This document shows positions 27,918 through 40,553 of a stretch of 64,000 nucleotides of DNA, in pieces. The DNA lies in NCBI GenBank assembly GCA_011911785.1, contig GCA_011911785.1_4084.1. One strand, given 5' to 3'. The translations under genes were made by a program, and so were the position numbers. Origin of the DNA: a phage. The notes under the pieces were generated by a model that had not been told where the DNA came from, did not search any database, and worked only from the letters and a program-made list of their open reading frames with translations. Within the stretch, counting starts at the first letter, position 1. The number at the start of each line of letters is the position of its first letter.

Positions 27918-27973
27918 TACTTTACATCGAGGCGGGGGAATGATTCTCCCGCCTATAACCAGGAGTAAGCATC

Positions 27974-28583: not shown

Positions 28584-28600
28584 GTACTGAGGATTATCTA

Positions 28601-28804: not shown

Positions 28805-28811
28805 AAAAGTA

Positions 28812-28840
28812 CTTGCAATTAGTTTTCAGTACTGTATAAT
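28812..28840 (+). promoter_or_regulatory. Type-B early promoter CTTGCA-17-TGTATAAT; 5' stem-loop at 28854-28871
   Basis: Read directly. Confidence 0.6.
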
Positions 28841-28890
28841 AGTTTACATCAAGGGGAGAAATGGTTCTCCCTGGTAATGAGGAAAATAAA

Positions 28891-29112
28891 ATGGCTAATA
28901 TCACTACTCTTTCCCAACTTGAAGCACTGGTTAAATCTATGCGGGAACATGCCGACAATATCGGCGTAAAAGATCCAGCCGTTTGCTTCTGCGACGAATT
29001 GAATGATGATACATTGGTAATAGCAGAAGTCCAGGACGTTTCTAACTATTCATCGCGTTACACTGGCGGCGTAGCAAATAAAGGTGACTTCTGTTTATAC
29101 CTTACAAAATAA
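28891..29112 (+). CDS. Hypothetical small early protein (73 aa)
   Basis: Track start 28861 lies inside the leader hairpin; RBS GAGGA. Confidence 0.55.
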   Translation: MANITTLSQLEALVKSMREHADNIGVKDPAVCFCDELNDDTLVIAEVQDVSNYSSRYTGGVANKGDFCLYLTK

Positions 29113-29116
29113 CAAC

Positions 29117-29146
29117 GAGGGGATCAATTGATCCCCTTTCTTTTTT
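29117..29146 (+). terminator. Intrinsic terminator GGGGATC-aatt-GATCCCC + T-run
   Basis: Read directly. Confidence 0.75.
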
Positions 29147-29230
29147 CAGTACTGAATCATTTAATAGACGGATCTATGCACCCGGTGGGTTAGAGACTGT
29201 TTCGTCTTTATGTAGTAATTATACAGTACT
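29147..29230. repeat. ~80-bp repeat element (copy 3)
   Basis: Aligns with 25567-25646 and 25786-25868. Confidence 0.5.
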
Positions 29231-29357
29231 GGATGCAGTTGTCAAGAACTATTTTTCAAATACTTTTATATTAATGTACTATACAATAGTTTTTAAACGC
29301 GTATAATGTTTTACATCTAGTCGGGAATACTCCCTAGTACTAACAAAGGATATACAA

Positions 29358-29657
29358 ATGAAAACTGCAATCATCGCCCTGGCTTTATCTGTTTCCTCTT
29401 TCGCTGTTAATGCGTCGTTAGATGTACCTGGTGATAAATTCATTCAGTGCACCGTAGCAATGACCGATGAAAGTACTGGCGAGATTGTTTTAAAGGATCT
29501 GGAATTACAGCCAGAAGCATTTAAAAACGGGCCGTTCCATGAAGAAGACGAAAACGGTAGCACAACAATTTATTATGATGCAAAGAAAAAACGCGGTTCG
29601 GTCACTGTTATGGATACTGAGAAAGTAACGCATACAGGCGTTATTAACTGCCTATAA
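29358..29657 (+). CDS. Small secreted protein with signal peptide (99 aa)
   Basis: N-terminus MKTAIIALALSVSSFAVNA. Confidence 0.55.
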   Translation: MKTAIIALALSVSSFAVNASLDVPGDKFIQCTVAMTDESTGEIVLKDLELQPEAFKNGPFHEEDENGSTTIYYDAKKKRGSVTVMDTEKVTHTGVINCL

Positions 29658-29677
29658 TACATCAGTACTGAATCACT

Positions 29678-29705
29678 AGCCCACTATAAGCAGTGGGCTT
29701 TTTTG
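29678..29705 (+). terminator. Intrinsic terminator AGCCCACT-ataagc-AGTGGGCT + T-run
   Basis: Read directly; same module at 30408. Confidence 0.75.
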
Positions 29706-29752
29706 TAGTATCGTAGTACTGGAATACTTTGAAAATAGTTTTAAAAAAGTAG

Positions 29753-29780
29753 TTGACATTACCGCAAAAAGGCGTAGAAT
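29753..29780 (+). promoter_or_regulatory. Early promoter TTGACA-16-TAGAAT with ~120-nt leader
   Basis: Leader is a diverged copy of the 27808-type element. Confidence 0.5.
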
Positions 29781-29903
29781 GTATTACATCAAGACGGGGA
29801 ACACTAAGTAGACCGCCAGTAAGTCGAACGAAAAACTGGACACGTCGAGAAAACTTTGATACACTAACTAACGTAAACTAAACTTTAATTGAGGAATTAC
29901 ATA

Positions 29904-30386
29904 ATGGCTAACGTAAAATCATTCATCAAAGCACTGGTAGCAAATGAAACTAACGTAGCGGCAGAGATCCTGGCCGAACTGGATAGCGATACCATGAAAG
30001 CAGTACGCAACAATTTTAACATTGCGTACAGCGAAGCGAAAGAACTGCAAGCTAATAAAGCGGCAGCACTTGAAGCTGAGAAGGCAGCACGCGAAGCTGA
30101 ATTGCAGAAAACGATTGAAGATATTAACGCCGCCGTCGCTGGGCTTGATCTGGAAGTAGTTACCGAAATGGCACGTAAAGCCCTGGCAGCGAAATACGGG
30201 GAAGACAAGCCAGAAGTAAAAGCTAAAAAATGGATTCAGGAACGCGTGACGGTAGTACTGGATAACGGCGAGGAATACACTGTACCAGTACGCGGTAACT
30301 GCATTGCGGTAGTACTGGATGCTATCAAAGAAAGCGGATTGACTCGCGAGGAATGGATCGAAGCTCATCGCAAAGTTGAAGCATAA
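29904..30386 (+). CDS. Hypothetical Ala/Lys/Glu-rich protein (160 aa)
   Basis: RBS GAGGA; track start 29889 rejected. Confidence 0.55.
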   Translation: MANVKSFIKALVANETNVAAEILAELDSDTMKAVRNNFNIAYSEAKELQANKAAALEAEKAAREAELQKTIEDINAAVAGLDLEVVTEMARKALAAKYGEDKPEVKAKKWIQERVTVVLDNGEEYTVPVRGNCIAVVLDAIKESGLTREEWIEAHRKVEA

Positions 30387-30407
30387 CAATTAAAGTACTG
30401 AATCACT

Positions 30408-30435
30408 AGCCCACCTTAAACAGTGGGCTTTTTTG
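30408..30435 (+). terminator. Intrinsic terminator AGCCCAC..GTGGGCT + T-run
   Basis: Read directly. Confidence 0.7.
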
Positions 30436-30661
30436 TGTCTATCGTTTACCAGGCCAGCAGCACCGCCTAGAATCGATTCTAACGCATTAAACTGATTATC
30501 TGATGCATCGCCCTAGCTGGTGGCGTTAAGGTCGTTAGAATGCGATTGAGGACGTTTAAAGTATTTTGCAAAAAGTAATAAAAAGTACTTGCACGATTAA
30601 GAGATTAGCGTATAATTAATTTCATCAAGGCGAGACACCTTAACTAACTGAGGATATAAAG

Positions 30662-30814
30662 ATGAATACTTATGAACTGGATTGTTTCACTTTACAAGTA
30701 ATGTCAGTATGCAGCAAGAAAGATTGGTCATCAAAGGAATTTAAAGCAGTTATCGCGTGTGCAAAACACGGCAAGACTATCAATGAAACGGCATCAATCA
30801 TTGATAAACTTTAA
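30662..30814 (+). CDS. Hypothetical small protein (50 aa), not in ORF track
   Basis: Promoter CTTGCA-17-TATAAT upstream; RBS GAGGA; hand-translated. Confidence 0.4.
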   Translation: MNTYELDCFTLQVMSVCSKKDWSSKEFKAVIACAKHGKTINETASIIDKL

Positions 30815-30885
30815 AAAATAGTTTGACAATAGTTTTAAGTACTGACATAATACATACATCAACTACTGAATAGGAATTAAAAAAA

Positions 30886-31113
30886 ATGGCTATCGTAATC
30901 ACTCGCGTAACTGGTACTACTGGCAATTCTTCTACTGTTGCTGTAATTACTAACAAGAAAGGTGCGGAACTACATTTTGCAATGTATAACTGGTCAGTTG
31001 ATGAGTTTGGTCAGTACGCTAGTGTAGAATACATTGAAACCTATCAAGTGCCGTCGATTAGTTTAACTGATTTGGGCGTTGAGCGTATCCTTTGCCTGGA
31101 TGAATTAAATTAA
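30886..31113 (+). CDS. Hypothetical small early protein (75 aa)
   Basis: Promoter TTGACA-17-CATAAT upstream. Confidence 0.55.
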   Translation: MAIVITRVTGTTGNSSTVAVITNKKGAELHFAMYNWSVDEFGQYASVEYIETYQVPSISLTDLGVERILCLDELN

Positions 31114-31198
31114 AAAAGTACTTGCAAAGTAAAACGAATAAAGTATAATACATTACATCAAGGGGAGAAATGGTTCTCCCCACTAAGAGGAAACGAAA

Positions 31199-31342
31199 AT
31201 GAAAACTTGTCAATGTGGTAAAAAATCTATTACTGGTTTAAAGCGGGGCGTTGCTCTTTGTCAGTATCACTATAATGCTCAAGTATGGGGTAAAGAGTGG
31301 GCCGACCAGGTTGAAGCAGTAAAGAAAGCAAAAAGTAAGTAA
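31199..31342 (+). CDS. Small Cys-rich protein (47 aa), not in ORF track
   Basis: Promoter + GGGGAGAA hairpin + RBS GAGGAAA; CQCG..CQYH. Confidence 0.4.
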   Translation: MKTCQCGKKSITGLKRGVALCQYHYNAQVWGKEWADQVEAVKKAKSK

Positions 31343-31433
31343 AATTATTATCACAGTACTATTGACATAGATTGATAGTACTGGCATAATAGATTTTATC
31401 AAGACAACACATATTAATTTAAGGAATACTAAA

Positions 31434-31646
31434 ATGGCTATCATTATTAAAAACAAAGTTAACAAGACTATCGTTAAACTGGCAGAAGTGAAAGAAGGTT
31501 ATAAAGTATCTTGGGAGGGTTTTTATAGGATGTTCACAGATATAGACGATGCAATCAAGTACTACACTGATACGGTTGCTGACTTTGTTCGTTCTGATGT
31601 AGTAATGGCAGTTGCACAACATAAAGCATCGAAAGAAAGTAAGTAA
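31434..31646 (+). CDS. Hypothetical small early protein (70 aa)
   Basis: Upstream cassette 31345-31433 duplicated at 31647-31737. Confidence 0.55.
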   Translation: MAIIIKNKVNKTIVKLAEVKEGYKVSWEGFYRMFTDIDDAIKYYTDTVADFVRSDVVMAVAQHKASKESK

Positions 31647-31737
31647 AAATATTATCACAGTACTATTGACATAGTTTGATAGTACTGGCATAATAGATTT
31701 TATCAAGACAACACATATTAATTTAAGGAATACTAAA

Positions 31738-32061
31738 ATGGCTAAAACTATCATTAACACCGTATCCCTGGCTGCAATCCGTGCAATCAATGTTGACGGT
31801 AAACGTTGGACTGATTCATATGGCAATACTTATCATTCTTGTCATGTAAGCGTTGAACTGGATAACGGTGTGAATGATCTGGCGGTTGAATCATTTACTT
31901 ATGGCTATGAAGATGCATATCAACAAACGGCGTTATCTCTCTTAAAGGAATCAGTAGATGGGCTTGATACTGTTGAAACCTCCCTTAATCGTTTGTGCAA
32001 TGATTTGTCTATCCCGTTGCATTGTACTGTACAGAATGTTAAACGCAAAAAAGATCTTTAA
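31738..32061 (+). CDS. Hypothetical small early protein (107 aa); paralog of 37670-37993
   Basis: Shared RWTDSxGNTYHSC..FTYGY. Confidence 0.55.
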   Translation: MAKTIINTVSLAAIRAINVDGKRWTDSYGNTYHSCHVSVELDNGVNDLAVESFTYGYEDAYQQTALSLLKESVDGLDTVETSLNRLCNDLSIPLHCTVQNVKRKKDL

Positions 32062-32141
32062 TTAGCTTTACTTTATGCAGATACTTTGATATAGTGTCTG
32101 CATAGGGGAAAGAAATTAAATTAACTTAAGAGGATAGTATA

Positions 32142-32411
32142 ATGAAAAATATCAGTACTTTAATCGATGCAGGTACGCATGTTCGTCGGTCTATGGTTGC
32201 AACCAGTACTACAAAACAAGTACCAAGCGGTTATCTTGTATTTGTACACGATGGAAAACTCCTGGAACGTTCAATCAATTTTGATGTTAAGAACAATTGT
32301 CGTTTTATTATCTTTAAGCGTGAACAATATAAAATTGATTTGCCAGCGAAGCCCATTAGCGGGGCGTACAACGTGCAATCATTGTTTGAGCGTCAACCAT
32401 ACACCTATTAA
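32142..32411 (+). CDS. Hypothetical small early protein (89 aa)
   Basis: RBS AAGAGGA; inverted repeat TGCAGATACT/AGTGTCTGCA upstream. Confidence 0.5.
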   Translation: MKNISTLIDAGTHVRRSMVATSTTKQVPSGYLVFVHDGKLLERSINFDVKNNCRFIIFKREQYKIDLPAKPISGAYNVQSLFERQPYTY

Positions 32412-32462
32412 TCAAAACATCGTTAGCGGTCGATTTAGGCCGCTAATATTGAGGATAATACC

Positions 32463-32633
32463 ATGAACGTTAATCAAGTACTGAATGAAGTTGAAAGCAT
32501 CATTAAACCTATGCAGCGTAGCGATGCTATTCCTACACCGGAAGAATGCAGACTATACGAACAATACAGCGTAGAACAAGCCCAGGCGATGGCCCGTATT
32601 CGTCCGGTTGCTAGTACTGATAAGGCGGTGTAA
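32463..32633 (+). CDS. Hypothetical small protein (56 aa), not in ORF track
   Basis: RBS GAGGA; coupled to next gene (TAATATG). Confidence 0.4.
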   Translation: MNVNQVLNEVESIIKPMQRSDAIPTPEECRLYEQYSVEQAQAMARIRPVASTDKAV

Positions 32634-32634
32634 T

Positions 32635-32844
32635 ATGCTTACTGTACAGGATAAGATCGACATCTTAAAGGTTAATATGTATGTGATTGATGCCGTACCT
32701 GGTAAAGTATTTGCATACGATGATTCTAATCGTAGTCCTTTCTATTGTAGTCATGTAGTTGGATACGTGCCGTTGGCGTATGTTATCGAAAGAGTGGTTG
32801 ATGCAGCATACAATCATTTTTTAGAAAATAATACTTGCAATTAG
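32635..32844 (+). CDS. Hypothetical small early protein (69 aa)
   Basis: Track start 32608 rejected. Confidence 0.5.
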   Translation: MLTVQDKIDILKVNMYVIDAVPGKVFAYDDSNRSPFYCSHVVGYVPLAYVIERVVDAAYNHFLENNTCN

Positions 32845-32913
32845 TTTTCAGTACTGTATAATTGTTTACATAGAGGGGGGAAATGGTTCTCCCCTGATAC
32901 TAGGAGAATCAAA

Positions 32914-33066
32914 ATGAAACAATACAACGCTCGGTTTGATGTTACTATCGGCAACGGCAAAGGTCAATTTTCTTTCAGTACTCGTCGCAGTTATACAGAA
33001 AACTTCCTGCGTAATTGTGCATTGACCGCCGCACAAATTAAACATTACTTCCAGGCTAAAAAATGA
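32914..33066 (+). CDS. Hypothetical small protein (50 aa), not in ORF track
   Basis: Promoter + hairpin + RBS AGGAG. Confidence 0.4.
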   Translation: MKQYNARFDVTIGNGKGQFSFSTRRSYTENFLRNCALTAAQIKHYFQAKK

Positions 33067-33152
33067 AATCATTGGCTTATTACAGTTCGGCGGTGATCGG
33101 TGCATTGATCGCGGCATTGTTAGTAACCTATCTATTCTTTGTGGTGATTTAA
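33063..33152 (+). CDS. Tiny hydrophobic peptide (29 aa)
   Basis: ATGA overlap with upstream stop; single TM-like segment. Confidence 0.25.
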   Translation: MKSLAYYSSAVIGALIAALLVTYLFFVVI

Positions 33153-33290
33153 ATGAATCCTAACGGTTTAATTTACAGTGCTCCTAAAACGAAAGCAGAT
33201 AAAGCGAAAGCACGTAAAGCGAAAGTAAAGGAGTACATCAAGCAAGGCATGACGCGAAAAGCAGCAGTACTAAAAGCTAAAAATAAATGA
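33153..33290 (+). CDS. Small Lys-rich basic protein (45 aa)
   Basis: TAAATG overlap; hand-translated. Confidence 0.3.
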   Translation: MNPNGLIYSAPKTKADKAKARKAKVKEYIKQGMTRKAAVLKAKNK

Positions 33291-33295
33291 AAAAA

Positions 33296-33329
33296 GTGGT
33301 TGACTTCGGTCAGCCATTTTGCTATTATA
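33296..33329 (+). promoter_or_regulatory. Type-A terminator/promoter cassette
   Basis: GTGGTTGACTTCGGTCAGCCA hairpin; -10 TATTAT; 13-nt motif follows at 33353. Confidence 0.55.
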
Positions 33330-33409
33330 TATTCATTGAGAGATAGCTCACTAGCCCACCGGGTGCGGAAGTGTAAATAAAATATATCAATCTAATAAGG
33401 AGTACTACA

Positions 33410-33592
33410 ATGTTTAAACCAATCGAACTAGCGGCATCACATATCATCGGTAAACCTGCCGTTATCATACGCCAGGAAGACGTAAACCTATGGATCATCT
33501 ATGTAGACATGAAAGAGATTGAGCGTCACGATGATTTCAAATCAGCGTCAATTGCGTATGATATGGCGTTATGTGAGTATCAAAGAGATTAA
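33410..33592 (+). CDS. Hypothetical small early protein (60 aa)
   Basis: RBS AAGGAG. Confidence 0.5.
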   Translation: MFKPIELAASHIIGKPAVIIRQEDVNLWIIYVDMKEIERHDDFKSASIAYDMALCEYQRD

Positions 33593-33691
33593 AAGTATTT
33601 TGCAAAAAGTACTTGCATTGTACTTAGAATCAAGTATAATGTTTTACATAGCAAGGGGAAACGGTTTCCCCTGGTAATAAGGAAACGAATC

Positions 33692-34033
33692 ATGACTATC
33701 TCAATTGCTCAATCTAACTTTGAAAACGAAATCATCGCCCAGGCACTGCGTTTAAATGATGGTCGGGCCGAAATTAATTACGGTTTCAATTCAGGCGGTT
33801 GTGAAAACTATCAGTACTTTGTAACGGCTGATGGCGGTGTCCTGGGAATCAATACAGTTATTGTAAACATTCAGAAAATTAATTTCAATGATCCAGACGA
33901 TAGCCAGTTTTACATTGTCGGCGTAGACGTGAACTATGAGGATGACTCACTAACTGATGATTGCACTGGTGAGAAGTTAGAAAGTGCATACGGTGAAGAT
34001 GATTATCAGTCCGGTCCAGAAGATTTCGAATAA
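33692..34033 (+). CDS. Hypothetical acidic protein (113 aa)
   Basis: Promoter cassette; RBS AAGGAAA. Confidence 0.55.
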   Translation: MTISIAQSNFENEIIAQALRLNDGRAEINYGFNSGGCENYQYFVTADGGVLGINTVIVNIQKINFNDPDDSQFYIVGVDVNYEDDSLTDDCTGEKLESAYGEDDYQSGPEDFE

Positions 34034-34128
34034 TATTAAAAAATAGTTTGACAATAGATTATAGTACTGTATAATAGTTTACATCAAGGGGAGAATAGTT
34101 CTCCCCACTAACAGAGAGAGAAAACAAA

Positions 34129-34341
34129 ATGGCTAATATCCGGTCGAAATTGAAAAATGCAAAACAAGTTTTATTTTCAGACCATGAATACTTTAATAAA
34201 GATATTACAGGAGTTACAAGTATCAAGGAAGTAAAAGAAAAAACTGGCGTTTTGTGTGATGTGCGATTGGTTGGAACATTTGGGAATAACGTGCTATATC
34301 GATGCGGTGATTATAACTTTACATTAACCATTATCGATTAA
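34129..34341 (+). CDS. Hypothetical small early protein (70 aa)
   Basis: Promoter TTGACA..TGTATAAT + hairpin upstream. Confidence 0.55.
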   Translation: MANIRSKLKNAKQVLFSDHEYFNKDITGVTSIKEVKEKTGVLCDVRLVGTFGNNVLYRCGDYNFTLTIID

Positions 34342-34423
34342 AAATATTATCACAGTACTATTGACAAAGATTGATAGTACTGGCATAATAGATTTTATCA
34401 ACTACACTACTAAGGAATTAAAA

Positions 34424-34603
34424 ATGGCTATCATCGCAAAAACTGAAATCGTTGGTCTGGATTCTATCATCATGACGTTTGAAGATCAAAAAGGGATGTA
34501 TGTAGTTTCCTATGGTGATTATGTTCGGGAGTATGAAACGGTAGACGAAGCCTTTGAAAGTTACATTCGCCAGGTGAATAAAGCATACGACGACTACCGC
34601 TAA
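34424..34603 (+). CDS. Hypothetical small early protein (59 aa)
   Basis: Upstream cassette shared with 31434 and 31738; track start 34361 rejected. Confidence 0.5.
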   Translation: MAIIAKTEIVGLDSIIMTFEDQKGMYVVSYGDYVREYETVDEAFESYIRQVNKAYDDYR

Positions 34604-34702
34604 AATATATTACCAGTACTATTAAAGATATTGACATAGTTTGATAGTACTGTATAATAAGTTTTATCAACAGTAGTTAACTTAACCTAAGAGAGAAAGA
34701 AA

Positions 34703-34846
34703 ATGATCGCACTGGATTCATTCATCGAAGCAGTACTGGCAAAAACTGGCGAAGATCTGACCGCAGAACAATACGCAATGATCGAACAATGCCAGCAAGA
34801 CGGTAAATCGGTGAAAGATACTGTTAAGATTATCCGCAAGATGTAA
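34703..34846 (+). CDS. Hypothetical small protein (47 aa), not in ORF track
   Basis: Promoter + RBS AGAGAGAAAG; terminator follows. Confidence 0.4.
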   Translation: MIALDSFIEAVLAKTGEDLTAEQYAMIEQCQQDGKSVKDTVKIIRKM

Positions 34847-34852
34847 GATTAT

Positions 34853-34882
34853 AGCCCACTGGTTAACGCTGGTGGGCTTTTT
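34853..34882 (+). terminator. Intrinsic terminator AGCCCAC..GTGGGCT + TTTT
   Basis: Read directly. Confidence 0.65.
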
Positions 34883-35024
34883 AGTATATACCTATCCGAT
34901 AGTACTACAAAATAGATTAGCTCGTTAGAATGCGTTTGAGAGCGTTTAAATAAGTACTAAAAAGTAATTGACAGTACTGAAAGATAGTATATAATATTTT
35001 ATATCTTAACTGAGGATAGAAATC

Positions 35025-35381
35025 ATGGGAATACAACACATCACGCGTACTACTGACAATGGTGAGATCACTGGTTATCAAGTACAGGGAAAAGCGTCAC
35101 AATTGCAGTACTGGTTTGAAAAACGTGGATTGATTGCACCGGATCTTGATTATGACCGTGTAGCGTTTATTGATTCTCTTTATGTTGATTCTGCTAGTCG
35201 GGGTAATGGTGAAGGCACGGAATTGATGAACGCCTTTATTGATGCCGCCGATGATTCAGATTGTATCATTTTAGAATGCGATACGGGAGAAGATAACGCC
35301 TTTAATCTTAAAGAATGGTACGAAGGTTTCGGATTCGAAGTACTGATCGATAGTGAATATCCTATCATGATTTTATCGTAG
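35025..35381 (+). CDS. Putative GNAT-family N-acetyltransferase (118 aa)
   Basis: Motif A-like VDSASRGNGEGTELM and motif B-like NAFNLKEWYEGFGF. Confidence 0.5.
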   Translation: MGIQHITRTTDNGEITGYQVQGKASQLQYWFEKRGLIAPDLDYDRVAFIDSLYVDSASRGNGEGTELMNAFIDAADDSDCIILECDTGEDNAFNLKEWYEGFGFEVLIDSEYPIMILS

Positions 35382-35469
35382 TACTAAAAAGTAATTGACA
35401 GTACTGATAGATAGTGTATAATGTTTTACATGAAGGGGAAACATCTTCCCCTACTAAGAGGAAATGAAA

Positions 35470-35658
35470 ATGGAAAACTTATCAAGTATTTTAGTACAAG
35501 ATGAATACGGCAATCCAGGAAGTGCTATCATTGTTCGGGGTAATAAGGCAACGTTTGTTATTGCTGGTGGACCTGTACAGCGTAGCATTAAAAACAATGC
35601 CGTTACTATTAATAATGTACGCTATCGCTTAGATAAAGAATTGATTCACAAACTGTAA
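35470..35658 (+). CDS. Hypothetical small early protein (62 aa)
   Basis: RBS AAGAGGA 7 nt upstream; promoter + hairpin. Confidence 0.5.
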   Translation: MENLSSILVQDEYGNPGSAIIVRGNKATFVIAGGPVQRSIKNNAVTINNVRYRLDKELIHKL

Positions 35659-35685
35659 TATTAATTTAATAGAGGATAACAATAA

Positions 35686-36009
35686 ATGTACATTCATACT
35701 ACTATCACAAAGGAAGTCCGTTGCCAGTTCGAAAGTATTCCGGGCGTATGTTTCATCACTGGTACGTTTTCCCCTGGTGATCGTGATAATCCAGTACTGT
35801 TACAATTACGCCATCCATCATGGGATAAAGCATTTGATCTACCGTTGAATGAATTCGCAACTACTGCTGAAAAGTACATTAAAAATATTCGCGAGAATGA
35901 TCGACTATTCATTAATGCTTTTAGTGATTCCGCGTTAAGCGAGATCCACGGCGTATTGGTTGCAATCATGGAATCTATGCAGAAAACTAAATTCAAACAA
36001 GGTGAATAA
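35686..36009 (+). CDS. Hypothetical small early protein (107 aa)
   Basis: RBS AGAGGA. Confidence 0.55.
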   Translation: MYIHTTITKEVRCQFESIPGVCFITGTFSPGDRDNPVLLQLRHPSWDKAFDLPLNEFATTAEKYIKNIRENDRLFINAFSDSALSEIHGVLVAIMESMQKTKFKQGE

Positions 36010-36093
36010 AAACTATTGACAATGCAATCCAGTACTGTATAATAAGTTACATGAAGGGGAGAAATGATTCTCCCCAGTACTGAGGAAAGAAAA

Positions 36094-36306
36094 ATGCAAG
36101 GTCAACTAATCGTTCGTAAATGGTCTGATACTAACGAAAAACCGTGGGATGTACAATACATCGCCCCCAATGGTGAATCCAGATATCAACCAGGTGTAAC
36201 GCATAGTACTGAGCAATTCGCCGCCGCACACCGTGAACGCCTGTTACAATCCATGCAGCAAGGCTTCGGTGAAAAATTCATCCAAGATCATTGGCTGAAA
36301 GATTAA
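36094..36306 (+). CDS. Hypothetical small early protein (70 aa)
   Basis: Track start 36064 lies in the leader hairpin; RBS GAGGAAAG. Confidence 0.55.
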   Translation: MQGQLIVRKWSDTNEKPWDVQYIAPNGESRYQPGVTHSTEQFAAAHRERLLQSMQQGFGEKFIQDHWLKD

Positions 36307-36393
36307 AAAAGTACTTGTGAAGTACTTAGAATCAAGTATAATGTTTTACATAGAGAGGGGAATAGTTCCCCTCCTAACAAAAAGGAAAGTAAC

Positions 36394-36567
36394 ATGATCC
36401 AAGTAGAATTGACAGTACTGAAAGATCTGTTTTATCGGATGGGTACTACTGGCGAATATCCGAAAGGTGATACCGCAAAACTTTACGTATCGCTGGATGT
36501 ATGGCAACGCGAACAATTAGCAACGGCCTGGCGTAAAGGCAAAGCAGATCGCGAGGTGCAAGCATGA
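36394..36567 (+). CDS. Hypothetical small protein (57 aa), not in ORF track
   Basis: Promoter + hairpin + RBS AAAGGAAAG. Confidence 0.4.
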   Translation: MIQVELTVLKDLFYRMGTTGEYPKGDTAKLYVSLDVWQREQLATAWRKGKADREVQA

Positions 36568-36713
36568 AAGAATACTTATTCGAAGTTACATTTTTGGGGC
36601 AAGGTATGCACCAACTAGTAAGATCCAGCGGTTATAGTCTTAACCAGGCATGGAATAACTTAAAGAAAATGTACCCTAACGCTATCACATATCGCAACCC
36701 AAAAGAAGTTTAA
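36564..36713 (+). CDS. Hypothetical small protein (49 aa), not in ORF track
   Basis: ATGA overlap with upstream gene. Confidence 0.35.
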   Translation: MKEYLFEVTFLGQGMHQLVRSSGYSLNQAWNNLKKMYPNAITYRNPKEV

Positions 36714-36727
36714 AAATAATTGAAAAA

Positions 36728-36760
36728 GGGATTGACTCCGGTCAGTCCCTTTGCTATTAT
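36728..36760 (+). promoter_or_regulatory. Type-A terminator/promoter cassette
   Basis: GGGATTGACTCCGGTCAGTCCC hairpin; -10 TATTAT; motif GCCCACAGGGTGC at 36781. Confidence 0.6.
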
Positions 36761-36894
36761 ATACGCATAGAAACAAATCAGCCCACAGGGTGCATAAATG
36801 TATCTATTATATGCTGGTGGACGTATTATCTAGTACTGAAAACTATTATAAAAAAGTACTTGCATTGTACTTAGAATCAAGTATAATGTTTTAC

Positions 36895-36970
36895 ATCAGG
36901 ACGGGGAATGAAACAAGTAACCCCGTTAAGTAGTCCAGGAGTAAGACATAAGAAAACCTCCCCTGATAAA
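36895..36970 (+). other. Conserved ~76-nt structured leader element (copy 2)
   Basis: About 85% identical to 27808-27883; lies between promoter at 36858-36887 and promoter at 36976. Confidence 0.35.
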
Positions 36971-36975
36971 ATAGT

Positions 36976-37003
36976 TTGACAATAGAAAGTAAACGAGTAT
37001 AAT
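36976..37003 (+). promoter_or_regulatory. Early promoter TTGACA-16-TATAAT
   Basis: Read directly. Confidence 0.6.
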
Positions 37004-37035
37004 ACTTACATCAACCACTGATAAGGAAACATAAA

Positions 37036-37311
37036 ATGCGGATTCTACTGACAGCTAACGAAATCGAACAAGTACTGACTACTAACCTGCAAGACTGGAA
37101 ACGTGAAGCAGATATCCAGGCGGTTCAATGGCTTAACGATAAGTTAACGCCGGATGACTTAAGCAAGATTGTAGATCCTCAATTCTATGAAGATATTCAC
37201 GACACCGCGTTAAGCGTCGAGGATGTACTTGATAAGCACTACATTGATATTGATTTGCAGGTTTACGGTCGTAAAAACTTTATCACTATTCACGACATTT
37301 ACAATAATTAA
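37036..37311 (+). CDS. Hypothetical small early protein (91 aa)
   Basis: RBS AAGGAAA. Confidence 0.55.
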   Translation: MRILLTANEIEQVLTTNLQDWKREADIQAVQWLNDKLTPDDLSKIVDPQFYEDIHDTALSVEDVLDKHYIDIDLQVYGRKNFITIHDIYNN

Positions 37312-37314
37312 GTA

Positions 37315-37342
37315 TTGACAAAGTATCTTAGTACTGTATAAT
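37315..37342 (+). promoter_or_regulatory. Early promoter TTGACA-16-TGTATAAT; 5' stem-loop at 37357-37375; cassette duplicated at 37573-37640
   Basis: Read directly. Confidence 0.6.
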
Positions 37343-37398
37343 AGTTTACATCAAGTGAGGGGAATGGTTCCCCTCCTAACTAAAAGAGAGAAATAAAA

Positions 37399-37581
37399 AT
37401 GGCTAAGTGCACTATCTGTAAGAAAGAAATCGTATTAGTTCCAAGTGCCCGTGAACGTGCCGCTCGGTTCGGTGGCAAAGCGTCAGACTATACAAAAATG
37501 TTTACTACCCATGCAGATTGCCAGGTAGCAAAACGTTCACAAGAAAGCGTAGAATTAATGCGTAAACTTTCCAGAAAATAA
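37399..37581 (+). CDS. Small Cys-containing protein (60 aa)
   Basis: CTICKK..HADC; start ATGGCT. Confidence 0.5.
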   Translation: MAKCTICKKEIVLVPSARERAARFGGKASDYTKMFTTHADCQVAKRSQESVELMRKLSRK

Positions 37582-37669
37582 GTATTGACAAAGTATCTTA
37601 GTACTGTATAATAGTTTACATCGAGTGAGGGGAAACGGTTCCCCTCCTAACAAAGAGAGAGAAATAAAA

Positions 37670-37993
37670 ATGGCTATGATCCTCACCCAGAAAGTAGAAC
37701 TGAAAATTGTAACCTCCTTTGACATTAAAGTTAATCGGTGGACTGATTCACACGGCAATACTTACCACTCTTGCTACGTGTCTGCTTTGATTGGTGATCG
37801 CTGGGAGGATTTAGGACATGAAACCTTTACTTACGGTTACGGCACACAAGGCGAATACACAGGCTTGGAGATCATTAAAGAAACCGTTATAGGTTTCAAC
37901 CCGAAAGAAAAAGTTATTCATCAAATAGAAAAAGAGATCAACAAAGAAATAACAGTTCGATACTACGATGTAAAACGTAAGAAAGACATGTAA
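37670..37993 (+). CDS. Hypothetical small early protein (107 aa); paralog of 31738-32061
   Basis: Track start 37625 rejected. Confidence 0.55.
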   Translation: MAMILTQKVELKIVTSFDIKVNRWTDSHGNTYHSCYVSALIGDRWEDLGHETFTYGYGTQGEYTGLEIIKETVIGFNPKEKVIHQIEKEINKEITVRYYDVKRKKDM

Positions 37994-38015
37994 TAGAATC
38001 CATTTAAAGTACTAT

Positions 38016-38044
38016 TTGACATTGCCCAGATAGTACTTTATAAT
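38016..38044 (+). promoter_or_regulatory. Early promoter TTGACA-17-TATAAT
   Basis: Degenerate copy precedes paralog gene at 26940. Confidence 0.55.
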
Positions 38045-38092
38045 AGACTCTAGCTTGTAGTACTAATTAACTTAACTAATAGGATGTATACC

Positions 38093-38488
38093 ATGATTAC
38101 TAAATTCTACGCTACCCGTGAAGCTGCCCGTATTGTTGCACGCGAGGAAGGAGCAGCATTTAAAGACATGGGCACGACCGCACCGAAAGGCCAACGCTGG
38201 GCCGTACAGTTCAAAGAAATCTCTGATATTGTGCATTCACCTGAGCCAGTACTAACAGCAGCAGAACTAAAACGAGCGGATATGCTGGCGGCAGTACTTA
38301 ACGCACAAGATGAGTTTATCGCTGGTTCTGATATCAAAGTACAGGTAAATGCTAATGCATGGACTCACGCGGATCACCTGGCTAACCTGAAGCGTCCAAG
38401 TGAACTGGTTCGCAACCAAAAAGAGATCCGTCATGATCGTAAGGGTAATCGTGTAACAGTATACAGTAAACGCCGCCAGGTTATCTAA
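38093..38488 (+). CDS. Hypothetical early protein (131 aa); paralog of 26940-27206
   Basis: RBS AGGA 8 nt upstream. Confidence 0.55.
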   Translation: MITKFYATREAARIVAREEGAAFKDMGTTAPKGQRWAVQFKEISDIVHSPEPVLTAAELKRADMLAAVLNAQDEFIAGSDIKVQVNANAWTHADHLANLKRPSELVRNQKEIRHDRKGNRVTVYSKRRQVI

Positions 38489-38510
38489 TAACTTGCAGTA
38501 CTAACAACAC

Positions 38511-38535
38511 GGCGGGATCAGTTCCCGCCTTTTTT
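38511..38535 (+). terminator. Intrinsic terminator GGCGGGA-tcagt-TCCCGCC + TTTTTT
   Basis: Read directly. Confidence 0.8.
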
Positions 38536-38550
38536 ATAGGATAAACTAAA

Positions 38551-38805
38551 ATGATTAAGGTTCAACTATCAAAAGATAATATCTTGCGGGTACACTATAA
38601 AGCACCACAGAGAATCATCACAAAGGCCGTACAGCTTGCTAATGAGTTTATTAATGGTAATCTATTGCCCAGGAAGTTAAGCAACGGCAAACTGCGTGTA
38701 ATCGATGTAGACACTAACAACAGAATAGTAATCGAGAATACAGGAAAGATAAACCTATATGAACACCAACAATATAATAAGAAAATAAAACTAATATCAC
38801 GTTGA
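38551..38805 (+). CDS. Hypothetical small early protein (84 aa)
   Basis: RBS AGGA. Confidence 0.5.
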   Translation: MIKVQLSKDNILRVHYKAPQRIITKAVQLANEFINGNLLPRKLSNGKLRVIDVDTNNRIVIENTGKINLYEHQQYNKKIKLISR

Positions 38806-38858
38806 CAGTACTCAATTGTTTTAGTACTATGTATCTATACCAACACGGGAGAAACAAA

Positions 38859-39077
38859 ATGAAATTATCTAAAATCGAAAAGAAAACTATTGATGAAGCA
38901 GTTAAGCACGGTTATACCTTTCGTAATGATTCACATTTTACCAATTTTCAACAAGGGTATCGTACTATTAAAAAACTTATTGACAAAGGTTTATTAGTTG
39001 AAGTCAATAACGGTAACGGTATCGAGTATCAACCAACACAAGACGCATTATCTTTAAAGAAATATGCAATTATCTAA
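38859..39077 (+). CDS. Hypothetical small early protein (72 aa)
   Basis: Promoter TTGACA-17-TACTAT duplicated at 39080; track start 38802 rejected. Confidence 0.5.
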   Translation: MKLSKIEKKTIDEAVKHGYTFRNDSHFTNFQQGYRTIKKLIDKGLLVEVNNGNGIEYQPTQDALSLKKYAII

Positions 39078-39142
39078 TTGACAGTACTCAATTGTTTTAG
39101 TACTATATGTACATACCAACACGGAATAACTGGAGAAACAAA

Positions 39143-39370
39143 ATGATTAATATCTTAGAACGCATCAAAGAAACTACTACGCTGGTGGATCTACTCAATG
39201 TACTGACTTTTAAAGTAACTCGGTTTAGTACTCCTGAATTTATCAACCTCATTGATAGTAAAGGTGAATACCGCATCACTATTGAAAATGGTCGTGCTAA
39301 TGTATTCAGTACTAAATCAGGTAAAACCGCAATTCATTCAGTAATTGCAAATAAAACTGTTGCAATCTAA
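39143..39370 (+). CDS. Hypothetical small early protein (75 aa)
   Basis: RBS GGAG; track start 39107 rejected. Confidence 0.5.
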   Translation: MINILERIKETTTLVDLLNVLTFKVTRFSTPEFINLIDSKGEYRITIENGRANVFSTKSGKTAIHSVIANKTVAI

Positions 39371-39439
39371 TTAGTACTAACATATAATAGTCACATCAAG
39401 GCAGGGAATACCTCCCTGCTATCTTAAAGAGTAAATGCA

Positions 39440-40024
39440 ATGCGTAATTATACTAAATTCATCCGTACACTGGCAGAAATGGAAACTAATAAAGAGATCC
39501 TTACAGCTTGTCGGTTGGCTGGTCTGGAGATCATCGGGGCCGGATCATCCCGTATCGTATTCGCTTTAAATGATCGGTTAGTGATTAAGGTCGCTAATTG
39601 TGACGCTGGCGTAGAACAAAATGAAACAGAATGTAAGGTATGGAATTTTTTAGATTATGACCGCCCTCACCTTAAACAGTACTTTGCTAAGGTGCATATG
39701 CATTTAAGCGATCCTGATAATATGTTTATTGTTATGGATCGTTTGAGTACTGCAAGCAAAGGCAGTGTAAAGCACGTTAACGCTTGCAATGAATTAAAGT
39801 ACAATGTCAAACGTAACACTATTGAACGCCAACACCATTTCGCTGATGCACTACAACACGTTGATGATACCTTATCAACACTAACGATAAGAGATATCAG
39901 AAAGCAGAACATAGGCCAAGATCGCAATGGCCTGATTAAAGTACTTGATTACGGTTTAACCCGCAATATCTGGAATCAGTACTATAAACAACGCGACGTA
40001 AAAGCCGTAACTATAACACGATAA
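39440..40024 (+). CDS. Putative protein kinase-like protein (194 aa)
   Basis: Gly-loop IGAGSSRIV, Lys in VIKV, catalytic-loop-like RDIRKQN, DYG in place of DFG. Confidence 0.5.
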   Translation: MRNYTKFIRTLAEMETNKEILTACRLAGLEIIGAGSSRIVFALNDRLVIKVANCDAGVEQNETECKVWNFLDYDRPHLKQYFAKVHMHLSDPDNMFIVMDRLSTASKGSVKHVNACNELKYNVKRNTIERQHHFADALQHVDDTLSTLTIRDIRKQNIGQDRNGLIKVLDYGLTRNIWNQYYKQRDVKAVTITR

Positions 40025-40038
40025 AAAAGATTAAAAAA

Positions 40039-40071
40039 GGGATTGACTCCAGTCAGTCCCTTTGCTATTAT
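40039..40071 (+). promoter_or_regulatory. Type-A terminator/promoter cassette
   Basis: GGGATTGACTCCAGTCAGTCCC hairpin; -10 TATTAT; motif variant at 40097. Confidence 0.6.
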
Positions 40072-40248
40072 ATAGTCATTGAGAGATAACTCACTGACCC
40101 ATAGGGTGCATAAGTGTATCTATAATATAAGTATTGTCAGTACTGAAAACTATTTTTAAAAAGTACTTGCATTGTACTTAGATTCAAGTATAATGTTTTA
40201 CATAGAGAGGGGGAAATAGTTCTCCCTCAAAGAATAAGGAATAAAATC

Positions 40249-40470: not shown

Positions 40471-40553
40471 GTATTGACAAAGTATATCAGTACTGTATAA
40501 TAGTTTACATCAAGGGGAGAATAGTTCTCCCCGATACTAAAAGGAATAAAATC

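What the first reader, a model, noticed from the sequence alone, without database searches (positions are those of the whole stretch)
31345..37669. Portable promoter + 5' stem-loop + RBS + ATGGCT cassettes duplicated in front of unrelated genes
The ~90-bp upstream region of 31434 (31345-31433) is repeated almost exactly in front of 31738 (31647-31737) and again in front of 34424 (34343-34423). Likewise 37312-37398 is repeated at 37570-37669. Most early genes start ATG-GCT and carry a GGGGAA..TTCCCC hairpin 5-25 nt after the -10. This matches the mobile regulatory cassettes proposed to mediate modular gene shuffling in T4-type phages. Here the density is extreme, about 55 genes in 18 kb.
Basis: partly seen in the sequence, partly recalled or inferred. 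Interest (0 to 1): 0.5.

Follow-up and report, generated by a model that had tools for sequence, protein, structure and literature searches.

The report
Repeated early-gene expression cassettes in phage terminal repeat
A jumbo E. coli phage packs about 50 tiny genes of unknown function into its 20-kb terminal repeat, most behind a copy of the same about 90-base promoter, RNA hairpin and ribosome-site cassette, and related phages gain and lose single genes at these cassettes, as proposed earlier for T4-like phages.

Summary
The repeats are real. 31345-31433 and 31647-31737 are 95.6% identical, 34343-34423 is 82% identical to both, and the 37312/37570 pair is 83-93% identical. The genes they precede show no BLASTP similarity. 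These copies belong to an array of about 37 near-consensus sigma-70 promoters, all on the + strand, spanning 24.85-43.7 kb. The array coincides with the roughly 20-kb direct terminal repeat of an Asteriusvirus jumbo phage (PBECO4/121Q group), so this is not a T4-type phage in the strict sense.

- Only 13 of 52 genes start ATGGCT.
- Only 25 of 52 genes have the hairpin.

The hairpin starts 10-15 nt after the -10 and never has a U-tract. It evolves 2.5-3 times more slowly than loops and linkers, shows compensatory changes, and tolerates G·U but not A·C. I read it as a selected RNA element in the 5' UTR, not a terminator.

Comparison with eight relatives found 22 pure indels. Twelve are flanked by 45-120-nt cassette repeats (p = 3.5e-7), with different crossover points in different phages. 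A few cassette-plus-gene blocks are shared at about 87% identity with unrelated Vequintavirinae phages.

Verdict: a PeSL-like system in a new lineage. This is a new member of a known kind, of moderate interest.

The parts
24465..44600 (+). Region equivalent to the roughly 20-kb direct terminal repeat (DTR) of Asteriusvirus genomes. It holds the whole cassette array.
   Evidence: Collinear at 85-93% identity with positions about 1-21,400 of vB_Ec-M-J, whose record annotates 1-21,525 as 'Direct Terminal Repeats', and with the left ends of CRJP21 and ELP-22. A DTR of 20,993 bp was confirmed by restriction digests for the relative fEgEco12 (PMC13070987).
31332..31436 (+). Hairpin-less cassette in front of g31434: TTGACA, 17-nt spacer, TGgCATAAT (extended -10), unstructured leader, AAGGA, ATGGCT.
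   Evidence: (family D11).
31636..31740 (+). Near-identical copy (95.6%) of the previous cassette, in front of the unrelated g31738.
34331..34426 (+). Third copy of the hairpin-less cassette (82%), in front of the unrelated g34424.
31434..31646 (+). 70-aa gene flanked by the two 95.6%-identical cassettes. It is absent from G17, JNE01 and ELP-22, which carry one cassette at this site.
   Evidence: HSP overlap of 120 nt in the shorter genomes; three-way alignment A2.
37298..37401 (+). Hairpin cassette in front of g37399: TTGACA, 16-nt spacer, TATAAT, then 14 nt, GAGGGGAA-tgg-TTCCCCTC, GAGAG, ATGGCT.
   Evidence: family D5; dG -13.9, z -2.4.
37568..37672 (+). Copy of the previous cassette (93% in register), in front of the unrelated g37670.
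37399..37581 (+). 60-aa gene flanked by the two cassette copies. It is absent from JP4 and 121Q, whose single cassettes are chimeras with different crossover points.
   Evidence: Alignment A3: the JP4 crossover lies between the hairpin and the RBS, the 121Q crossover between the RBS and the ATG. HSP overlaps of 100-108 nt.
32822..32916 (+). Hairpin cassette in front of g32914. Relatives carry 156-267-nt insertions at this cassette.
   Evidence: overlaps of 59-73 nt.
33600..33694 (+). Hairpin cassette (AAAAAGTAC-TTGCAT type) in front of g33692.
34034..34131 (+). Hairpin cassette (GGGGAGAA-tag-TTCTCCCC) in front of g34129. This was the query for the taxonomic survey.
   Evidence: dG -13.3, z -3.2.
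35382..35472 (+). Hairpin cassette in front of g35470.
36002..36096 (+). Hairpin cassette in front of g36094.
36302..36396 (+). Hairpin cassette in front of g36394.
   Evidence: D1 reference copy; dG -15.0, z -3.2.
40464..41051 (+). g40554 (135 aa) flanked by two 90%-identical hairpin cassettes. The gene is absent from ELP-22, CRJP21, PBECO4 and 121Q.
   Evidence: HSP overlap of 99-101 nt; cassette pair identity.
31738..32061 (+). 107-aa gene, paralogous to g37670 (37670-37993; 36% identity, E = 7e-25), but preceded by a different cassette class.
36725..36760 (+). Composite terminator-promoter. The stem of an intrinsic-terminator hairpin (AAAGGGATTGACTCCGGTCAGTCCCTTT) contains the -35 hexamer, and the T-run leads into TATTAT. 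Further copies lie at 33293, 40036 and 43116, with a variant at 206, 935 and 2358.
   Evidence: The homologous sites are annotated as ARNOLD terminators in the G17 record.
36860..36975 (+). Promoter followed by a conserved 75-nt structured leader with no ORF, which runs straight into the next promoter. A second copy lies at 27773-27890.

Best explanation
The finding is part of an array of autonomous early-expression cassettes that fills the direct terminal repeat of an Asteriusvirus jumbo coliphage.

Each unit consists of:
- an A-rich upstream tract;
- a near-consensus host sigma-70 promoter;
- in two thirds of units, an 8-bp G/C-rich hairpin that starts 10-15 nt after the -10;
- an unpaired Shine-Dalgarno sequence;
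- an ATG, often followed by GCT or AAA.

Each unit drives one small ORFan, occasionally two or three. I infer that host RNA polymerase transcribes these genes immediately after DNA entry, as in other terminal-repeat 'host-takeover' modules.

Shown here: the cassettes descend from one another, since they are near-identical even at positions with no known function. They are also the places where genes are gained, lost and swapped between related phages. The gene-containing variant has the gene flanked by two cassette copies, and the gene-lacking variant has one chimeric cassette. The crossover point differs between lineages. This is the footprint of general homologous recombination between repeats (unequal crossing-over, or excision and integration of a cassette-plus-gene circle), not of a site-specific enzyme.

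The hairpin is under purifying selection as an RNA structure on the sense strand and is not an intrinsic terminator. I infer that it most likely protects or insulates the 5' end of each mRNA, or of fragments processed from read-through transcripts, while leaving the ribosome-binding site open.
For: Promoter array:
- 52 stringent matches on the + strand versus 5 on the - strand; 15 perfect 12/12 TTGACA-N16/17-TATAAT matches on the + strand in 19.8 kb.

DTR location:
-.
- The number of cassette copies per record doubles (about 20 versus about 10) in records that include both DTR copies.

Common descent:
- Up to 98% identity over 90 nt, including the spacer and linker.
- The four most similar of the 820 pairs are all neighbouring cassettes that flank a polymorphic gene.

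Recombination:
- 22 pure indels against 8 relatives; 12 have 45-120-nt flanking cassette repeats. Simulated random intergenic deletions reach that length in 10% of cases; binomial p = 3.5e-7.
- Chimeric single cassettes have three different crossover positions.
- Paralogs g31738/g37670 sit behind different cassettes, and unrelated genes sit behind the same cassette.
- Vequintavirinae phage A73 carries the same cassettes, and 5-6 of the same genes at 72-88% nucleotide identity but in a different order.
- DNA on either side of the DTR matches no non-jumbo phage apart from one short (1% of the query, 77% identity) endonuclease V match.

Hairpin:
- 188 copies and 48 distinct sequences across the window and 9 loci.
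- Stems differ by compensatory pair changes at stem positions 4, 6, 7 and 8.
- Internal mismatches are G·T in 16 distinct hairpins and A·C in 1 (p = 3e-4).
- 0 of 188 copies have at least 5 T in the next 8 nt.
- In 130 orthologous comparisons the stems differ at 5-6% of sites, against 13.7% for loops, 18.8% for linkers, 14.3% for spacers and 14.9% for third codon positions.
- Orthologs show GTGGGG/CCCCAC changing to GCGGGG/CCCCGC, and similar changes.
- Folding gives dG of -13 to -15 kcal/mol (z -2.0 to -3.7), with the SD and ATG unpaired in every minimum-free-energy structure.

Gene content:
- Only about 5 of 52 proteins have any Pfam hit.
Against: - No transcription start sites, expression timing or RNA half-lives are available. 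'Early' is inferred from promoter type and from analogy with SPO1 and T5.
- With the start site predicted 7-8 nt after the -10, class B hairpins would sit behind about 5-6 unpaired nucleotides. This is more than the 2-4 nt usually cited, from my own knowledge of ompA-type work, as the limit for 5' stem-loop protection against RNase E. Class A leaders leave about 2 nt unpaired.
- About 12 promoter-bearing cassettes do without a hairpin.
- Breakpoints of viable indels must be intergenic in any case, and nearly all intergenic DNA here is cassette, so selection inflates the association. My null model controls for intergenic position but not for a requirement that a working promoter be regenerated.
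- The direction of each event (insertion or deletion) cannot be determined.
- Several indels and replacements have no flanking repeat (overlap of 16 nt or less in 10 of 22).
Confidence: 0.65

Rival explanations
1. The stem-loops are transcription terminators or attenuators that isolate each unit from upstream read-through. This is the function originally assigned to PeSL stem-loops.
For: An RB49 PeSL stem-loop reduced lacZ expression as strongly as rrnB T1 (PMC2839356). Selection at the RNA level on the sense strand fits a terminator as well as it fits a 5' UTR element. With about 37 promoters and only about 11 canonical terminators on the + strand in 19 kb, some attenuation of cumulative read-through would be useful.
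Against: None of the 188 hairpins is followed by a T-run, and the terminator scan does not flag any of them. It does flag 11 separate canonical + strand terminators in the same region, including the composite -35-overlapping ones. The hairpin keeps a fixed distance (10-15 nt) from the -10, which suggests a link to the transcript's own 5' end.
Confidence: 0.2
2. The hairpin is a recognition site for a protein. It could be an RNA operator for a phage translational repressor or endonuclease that shuts off early genes together, or a DNA site that stimulates recombination, as the PeSL authors speculated for GGGG...CCCC.
For: The core of the stem is sequence-conserved (GGGG(A)GAA/TTC(T)CCCC, with A-T closing pairs in 47 of 48 distinct hairpins), beyond what pairing alone requires. 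The stems are under purifying selection. The 5' arm resembles a Shine-Dalgarno sequence and the 3' arm resembles the anti-SD (CCUCC), as the sequence shows directly.
Against: Loop sequences and lengths vary widely (tag, atga, atgg, cgg, cac, aaac, atatc and others), and outer stem pairs covary freely. Crossover points are spread across the cassette rather than fixed at the hairpin. The G·T versus A·C asymmetry argues against a purely DNA-level cruciform role.
Confidence: 0.12
3. The similarity is convergence. Any strong promoter plus RBS looks alike, so the cassettes are neither related by descent nor involved in gene shuffling, and the indels are ordinary illegitimate deletions retained because they fall between genes.
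For: The most conserved positions are the functional ones: -35 (3.6% divergence), -10 (1.2%) and ATG (0.5%). The median pairwise identity of all upstream regions is only 58%.
Against: Subfamilies are 82-98% identical across spacers, leaders and linkers that have no consensus requirement. 12 of 22 indels carry 45-120-nt flanking repeats, against 10% in simulated intergenic deletions. The gene-lacking genomes carry chimeric cassettes.
Confidence: 0.03

Closest known systems
PeSLs (promoter-early stem-loops) of T4-like phages RB49/phi1, T4/PST and KVP40/nt-1 (Arbiol et al. 2010, PMC2839356; Comeau et al. 2014, PMC4122927)
   Same: - Composite motif of about 90-100 bp: AT-rich tract, near-perfect sigma-70 promoter, G-run/loop/C-run stem-loop, SD and ATG.
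- Dozens of copies concentrated in a hyperplastic region of small ORFans.
- Indels and replacements between close relatives are bounded by the motifs, with variable crossover points inside them.
   Different: - The host lineage is an Asteriusvirus jumbo phage (plus Vequintavirinae), not Straboviridae.
- No sequence similarity to RB49-type phages was detected.
- In PeSLs the stem-loop most often lies between or over the -35 and -10 and acts as a terminator. Here it always lies 10-15 nt downstream of the -10 and has no U-tract.
- A third of the cassettes lack it.
- The array sits in the direct terminal repeat.
- Mini-circles were not tested.
[quoted passage not shown] 1998, as summarised in PMC6873191); the pre-early genes in the T5 terminal repeat (my own knowledge)
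   Same: A cluster of a few dozen small, mostly uncharacterised genes in the terminal repeat, with promoters and ribosome-binding sites typical of very highly expressed host-polymerase genes.
   Different: SPO1 has 26 genes, several of them grouped in operons, in its 12.4-kb terminal region. Here there are about 52 genes and about 37 promoters in 20 kb. The repeated, recombining cassette structure and the 5' hairpin have not, to my knowledge, been described for SPO1 or T5. Early expression and host shutoff are untested here.
5'-terminal stem-loop mRNA stabilisers (the ompA 5' UTR type; Emory, Bouvet and Belasco 1992, from my own knowledge)
   Same: A stable hairpin close to the 5' end of the mRNA, upstream of an accessible RBS, that can be moved between genes.
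   Different: The predicted unpaired 5' segment is 2-6 nt, which is at or beyond the reported limit for protection. No half-life data exist, and the start sites are only predicted.
Integron gene cassettes and phage 'morons'
   Same: Single promoter-equipped (moron) or recombination-site-equipped (integron) genes are added to and removed from an array without disturbing their neighbours.
   Different: No integrase or attC-type site is evident, and the crossover positions vary, which points to general homologous recombination. Unlike morons, the flanking regulatory sequence is itself the recombination substrate.

Membership tests
PeSL (promoter-early stem-loop) cassettes | Near-consensus sigma-70 promoter with an AT-rich tract upstream of the -35 | tested here: met
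   TTGACA or TTGCAx, 16-17-nt spacer, TATAAT, preceded by AAAAAGTAC or AAAATAG, in about 37 cassettes. 15 are perfect 12/12 matches on the + strand.
PeSL (promoter-early stem-loop) cassettes | Adjacent stable stem-loop, typically a G-run, a loop and a C-run | tested here: met
25 of 37 promoter-bearing cassettes in the window have one, with dG of -10 to -19 kcal/mol.
PeSL (promoter-early stem-loop) cassettes | The stem-loop works as a terminator or attenuator of upstream transcription ('composite promoter-terminator') | tested here: not met
   By sequence criteria only. 0 of 188 hairpins have a T-run, and none is flagged by the terminator scan. Only the separate class with the hairpin over the -35 (33293, 36725, 40036, 43116) looks like a terminator-promoter composite. 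A functional assay is not possible with these tools.
PeSL (promoter-early stem-loop) cassettes | Shine-Dalgarno sequence and start codon at the 3' end; located upstream of ORFans in hyperplastic regions | tested here: met
   Only about 5 of 52 proteins have a Pfam hit. No relative covers more than 71% of the region, although shared parts are about 91% identical.
PeSL (promoter-early stem-loop) cassettes | Indels or replacements between close relatives bounded by the motifs, with the crossover inside them | tested here: met
   12 of 22 pure indels have 45-120-nt flanking cassette repeats, p = 3.5e-7. Chimeric cassettes are seen in alignments A2 and A3.
PeSL (promoter-early stem-loop) cassettes | Formation of cassette-plus-gene mini-circles during infection | not testable with these tools
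   Needs inverse PCR or long-read sequencing of infected cells. The near-identity of the cassette pairs flanking polymorphic genes is what integration of a circle would leave, but unequal crossing-over explains it too.
PeSL (promoter-early stem-loop) cassettes | Carried by T4-type (Straboviridae) phages; sequence related to the described PeSLs | tested here: not met
   The records place the relatives in Asteriusvirus and Vequintavirinae. BLAST with the cassette returned no RB49/phi1/T4-type record.
Terminal-repeat host-takeover module (SPO1/T5 type) | Cluster of small genes with strong host-polymerase promoters inside the direct terminal repeat | tested here: met
   Position established by homology to an annotated DTR, together with an experimentally confirmed DTR in a relative. 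Promoters.
Terminal-repeat host-takeover module (SPO1/T5 type) | Expressed first after infection; products shut off host functions | not testable with these tools
   I found no transcriptome or functional data for Asteriusvirus.
Intrinsic (Rho-independent) terminator | G+C-rich hairpin immediately followed by a U-tract | tested here: not met
   The hairpin is present, but the U-tract is absent in all 188 copies.
ompA-type 5' stem-loop mRNA stabiliser | Stem-loop within about 2-4 unpaired nucleotides of the transcript's 5' end | tested here: inconclusive
   With the start site predicted 7-8 nt after the -10, the unpaired leader is about 2 nt in TTTACATAGAG-type cassettes and about 5-6 nt in TTTACATCAAG-type cassettes. 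The start sites are not mapped.

The most novel reading that the evidence does not exclude
The cassettes could be a recombinase-independent, integron-like exchange system shared by unrelated coliphage families. The terminal repeat of Asteriusvirus jumbo phages and the early region of Vequintavirinae-type myophages would draw on one pool of small host-takeover genes, each packaged with the same promoter, hairpin and RBS unit. The shared cassette sequence would itself be the homology that lets co-infecting, otherwise unalignable phages trade genes. The hairpin would be a common RNA module read by a host or phage factor rather than a terminator.
Probability: 0.25. Interest if true: 0.65.

Novelty: new member of a known kind. 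Interest (0 to 1): 0.45.

Why it matters
This extends the PeSL idea, that repeated regulatory cassettes serve as the substrate for gene-by-gene shuffling, beyond T4-like phages to jumbo phages, and places it in the terminal repeat, where every gene is present twice per genome. The system is clean and densely sampled: about 40 sequenced relatives, about 30 events in 20 kb, and crossover points that can be mapped. It could be used to measure how phages turn over their host-takeover and anti-defence gene sets. The cassettes themselves are compact, apparently context-independent expression units for E. coli. The evidence that the hairpin is selected as an RNA structure but is not a terminator also bears on what the stem-loop in PeSL-type elements does. 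In the open-access literature I could search, I found no description of these cassettes for Asteriusvirus.

Tried and rejected
- MAFFT plus RNAalifold on 24 leaders predicted no structure. This was an alignment-register artefact, so I replaced it with a loop-anchored census of hairpins.
- An ungapped X-drop measure of flanking repeats failed because the cassette copies differ by 1-nt indels. I replaced it with HSP overlap, using a BLAST simulation as the null.
- A register-based count of stem changes in orthologs suggested as many A·C as G·U pairs. Inspecting the actual variants showed that most of the A·C cases were register shifts and only one is real.
- I suspected that g31434 and g34424 were paralogs because both begin MAII. 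BLASTP finds no alignment.
- ATG triplets in some hairpin loops (atgg, atga) could in principle be upstream-ORF starts. I rejected this because they sit 2-3 nt after the SD-like arm, lie inside the stem-loop, and are absent from most loops.
- Rfam gave no match at gathering thresholds for the whole window, nor at E<=1 for 36700-37050. There are no tRNAs.
- Pattern scans of IMG/VR found the cassette only in a few jumbo-phage contigs and four shorter contigs, so they added little.
- I considered a possible switch in which the anti-SD-like 3' arm pairs with the real SD. The possible pairings are only about 4 bp and I did not pursue it.

Full report
**What the sequence is.** Megablast of 31-38 kb and of 24.5-45 kb against GenBank phages hits only jumbo E. 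coli and Salmonella myophages of the genus Asteriusvirus (PBECO4, 121Q, G17, slurp01 and others) at high coverage. Shared parts are about 91% identical, yet no record covers more than 71% of the 20-kb region, and matches are broken into 4-17 pieces. The region is collinear with positions 1 to about 21,400 of phage vB_Ec-M-J, whose record annotates 1-21,525 as 'Direct Terminal Repeats', and with the left ends of CRJP21 and ELP-22. A 20,993-bp terminal repeat was confirmed by restriction digestion in the relative fEgEco12 (PMC13070987). The finding therefore lies inside the window's equivalent of the terminal repeat, about 24,465-44,600. Beyond 44.6 kb the genes become tightly packed and overlapping, without promoters.

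**Checking the observation.** The named repeats exist:
- 31345-31433 vs 31647-31737 is 95.6% identical.
- Each of these is 82% identical to 34343-34423.

The repeat finder reports these pairs, along with about 20 other overlapping families of 50-100 nt.

A stringent pattern (TTGACA-like, 16-18-nt spacer, TATAAT-like) matches 52 times on the + strand and 5 times on the - strand of the window, with 43 of the + strand matches between 24.85 and 43.7 kb. The consensus scanner finds 15 perfect 12/12 promoters on the + strand in 19.8 kb, and 110 lax matches against 68.5 ± 8.6 in shuffles. Across 820 pairs of 90-nt upstream regions the median identity is 58% and 10% of pairs exceed 71%. Coding 90-mers and shuffled upstream regions give medians of 50-51% and maxima of 60-62%.

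I curated 52 + strand genes between 26,162 and 44,449, with a mean length of about 83 aa. 37 of them have their own promoter.
- ATGGCT starts 13 of 52 genes, not most. It is nevertheless enriched tenfold over the internal GCT codon frequency (p = 2e-10). AAA is the next most common second codon.
- A stable hairpin is present in 25 cassettes. That trio instead has an extended -10 (TGgCATAAT).
- The hairpin begins 10-15 nt after the -10 hexamer, with a mode of 12.

The genes behind the duplicated cassettes are unrelated by BLASTP. Conversely, the paralogs g31738 and g37670 (36% identity) sit behind different cassette classes.

**The hairpin.** I collected every hairpin found downstream of a promoter match in the window and in nine related loci. 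This gave 188 copies and 48 distinct sequences.
- The stems share a core (GGGG(A)GAA / TTC(T)CCCC).
- They differ by double, pairing-preserving changes at stem positions 4, 6, 7 and 8, counted from the loop (G-C to A-T, G-C to C-G, G-C to T-A).
- My stem definition allowed any single internal mismatch. Of the mismatches found, 16 distinct hairpins (43 copies) have G·T and one has A·C (p = 3e-4). This points to selection on the RNA of the sense strand rather than on a DNA cruciform.
- None of the 188 copies is followed by a T-run. The terminator scan ignores them, while finding 11 canonical + strand terminators elsewhere in the region.

In 130 comparisons of orthologous cassettes with eight relatives, divergence by cassette element was as follows:

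| Element | Sites differing |
|---|---|
| ATG | 0.5% |
| -10 | 1.2% |
| -35 | 3.6% |
| Stem arms | 5-6% |
| Loops | 13.7% |
| Spacers | 14.3% |
| Third codon positions | 14.9% |
| Linkers | 18.8% |

Orthologous variants include clear compensatory pairs, such as GTGGGG/CCCCAC changing to GCGGGG/CCCCGC. An apparent excess of A·C pairs in the register-based ortholog count was an alignment artefact.

Folding of seven leaders gives -13 to -15 kcal/mol (z -2.0 to -3.7), and the SD and ATG are unpaired in every minimum-free-energy structure. With the start site predicted 7-8 nt after the -10, the unpaired 5' segment would be about 2 nt in the TTTACATAGAG type and about 5-6 nt in the TTTACATCAAG type. 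The classical '5' stem-loop stabiliser' reading is therefore plausible but not secure.

**Recombination at the cassettes.** I chained BLAST HSPs between the window and eight Asteriusvirus loci. About 30 distinct events appear in 20 kb: 22 pure indels, and the rest replacements. In 12 of the 22 indels the two HSPs overlap by 45-120 nt in the genome that lacks the segment. This means the segment is flanked by direct repeats, and those repeats are cassettes.

Examples of genes present in the window and absent from relatives:
- g31434: overlap 120 nt; absent from G17, JNE01 and ELP-22.
- g37399: overlap 100-108 nt; absent from JP4 and 121Q.
- g40554: overlap 99-101 nt; absent from four phages.
- 38862-39078: overlap 62 nt.
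- 41567-41844: overlap 56 nt.

Relatives also carry extra genes inserted at window cassettes 26530-26610, 29272-29316, 32822-32894, 36963-37038 and 43250-43318.

As a null, I made 300 simulated deletions with both ends at random intergenic positions. These gave an overlap of 45 nt or more in 10% of cases, so 12 of 22 has p = 3.5e-7.

Three-way alignments show chimeric single cassettes. JP4 switches from the upstream to the downstream copy between the hairpin and the RBS. 121Q switches between the RBS and the ATG. G17, JNE01 and ELP-22 switch at the extreme 5' edge, where the two upstream genes share their last codons. Variable crossover points indicate general homologous recombination and independent events.

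The four most similar cassette pairs out of 820 are all neighbours that flank a polymorphic one- or two-gene segment. Recent integration of a cassette-bearing circle, or unequal crossing-over, would leave this pattern.

**Sharing across phage families.** The 20-kb region hits 165 phage records. More than 100 of them are 135-155-kb myophages (Vequintavirinae, Phapecoctavirus-like and similar). The flanking 24 kb and 19 kb of the window hit 51 and 34 records, almost all Asteriusvirus or other Rak2-like jumbo phages. Most of the foreign hits are to a single gene, g26619, with or without its cassette. A few phages (A73, W70, A7_1, LTH01, UPEC06) share several blocks.

In A73 (Vequintavirinae by its record) I read the same promoter-hairpin cassettes, and homologs of g30886+g31199 (87%), g26619 (87%), g37036 (87%), g34129 (72%) and g33692 (74%), in a different order. 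The 98-nt cassette 34034-34131 is also found at 75-79% identity in Klebsiella phages RaK2 and Muenster (there inside a predicted terminal repeat) and in Erwinia phage Hallingskeid. It is not found in any T4-type phage.

**Comparison with what is known.** Arbiol et al. (PMC2839356) and Comeau et al. [quoted passage not shown]

The present cassettes meet the criteria for composition, location and indels. They fail two criteria. The lineage is not T4-type, and I detected no sequence relationship. By sequence criteria, the main hairpin class is not a terminator. A separate class in the window is a true terminator-promoter composite, with its terminator stem containing the -35 hexamer (33293, 36725, 40036, 43116; variant at 206, 935, 2358).

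In overall architecture the closest analogues are the SPO1 host-takeover module in its terminal redundancy (PMC6873191) and the T5 pre-early region (my own knowledge). Papers I could search on Rak2-like and Asteriusvirus phages mention RpoD-like promoters with UP elements (CBB, PMC5259590) or terminal repeats. None mentions repeated cassettes, hairpins or PeSL-type shuffling.

**Verdict.** The core observation is real and well above chance. I classify this as a new member of a known kind, of moderate interest.

Shown here:
- the repeats and their common descent;
- the location in the terminal repeat (by homology);
- recombination footprints at the cassettes;
- RNA-level selection on the hairpin, and the absence of terminator features;
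- sharing of cassette-plus-gene blocks across phage families.

Inferred, not shown:
- early expression;
- the hairpin's role as a 5' protector or insulator;
- circular intermediates.

Noticed in passing
whole window; densest at 20,000-44,000: The palindrome AGTACT occurs 267 times in 64 kb against about 22 expected, a 12-fold excess. It and its extensions CAGTAC and GTACTG are the three most over-represented hexamers. In the terminal repeat the count is 132 against 6.2 ± 2.4 in dinucleotide shuffles, and CAGTACTG occurs 37 times against 0.3. It is enriched in coding DNA in all three frames (15/10/22) as well as between genes. In promoters it sits at two fixed places: abutting the -35 (15 promoters) and abutting the -10 (16 promoters). 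All eight Asteriusvirus loci have 5-6.5 copies per kb, whereas the Vequintavirinae locus A73 has the expected 0.5 per kb. Two stretches (about 44-48 kb and 52-56 kb) almost lack it. No paper I could search mentions this. It may be a binding or modification site for a phage protein.
   Followed up: partly
window 27773-27890 and 36860-36975; L004 (A73) 2980-3097: A strong sigma-70 promoter is followed by a conserved 75-nt sequence with no ORF (ACAUCAGGACGGGGAA...CCCCGUUAAGUAGUCCAGGAGUAAGACAUAAGAAAACCUCCCCUGAUAAAAU). It folds into an outer stem plus two hairpins (dG -17.9, z -2.3) and runs directly into the next promoter (TTGACAAT). There are two copies in every Asteriusvirus terminal repeat examined, and one at 88% identity in a Vequintavirinae phage. 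Rfam gives no match. It could be a small RNA, a structured leader of tandem promoters, or a cassette that has lost its gene.
   Followed up: partly
window 33293-33390, 36725-36812, 40036-40129, 43116-43208 (related: 27552-27643); variant at 206, 935, 2358: A compact terminator-promoter composite. The stem of an intrinsic-terminator hairpin (AAAGGGATTGACTCCGGTCAGTCCCTTT) contains the -35 hexamer, and its T-run leads into the -10 (GCTATTAT). Inside the terminal repeat it is followed by a conserved stretch of about 45 nt without an ORF, containing AGCCCACnGGGTGC. As a result, g27974 and g37036 are each preceded by three tandem promoters in about 320-450 nt of non-coding DNA.
   Followed up: partly
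window 26583-26859 (g26619, 79 aa): This one small gene, with or without its cassette, is shared at 80-90% nucleotide identity with more than 100 records of 135-155-kb E. coli myophages from other subfamilies, and even with a 42.7-kb phage (PGT2). This distribution is far wider than that of anything else in the window.
   Followed up: no
window 24465-26100: The first 1.6 kb of the terminal-repeat equivalent has no convincing gene. It has one perfect + strand promoter at 24852 followed by a non-coding stretch, and - strand promoter matches at 25875 and 25535. These could be terminus- or packaging-related sequences.
   Followed up: no
window 44,600-50,000: Immediately past the terminal repeat the architecture changes. 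Runs of 65-85-aa genes overlap by 4 nt (ATGA-type junctions), with no promoters or hairpins and much lower identity to relatives (73-86%). The upstream flank (about 12-20 kb) carries tandem RCC1-like 'DNA condensation' paralogs on the - strand in relatives.
   Followed up: no
window 26162-44449 proteins: Among the 52 small proteins the only Pfam matches are a GNAT acetyltransferase (g35025), a ParE-like toxin domain, DUF7249, DUF7247, DUF1033 and a weak SAM_SMF hit. I did not work out which gene carries the ParE-like domain.
   Followed up: no
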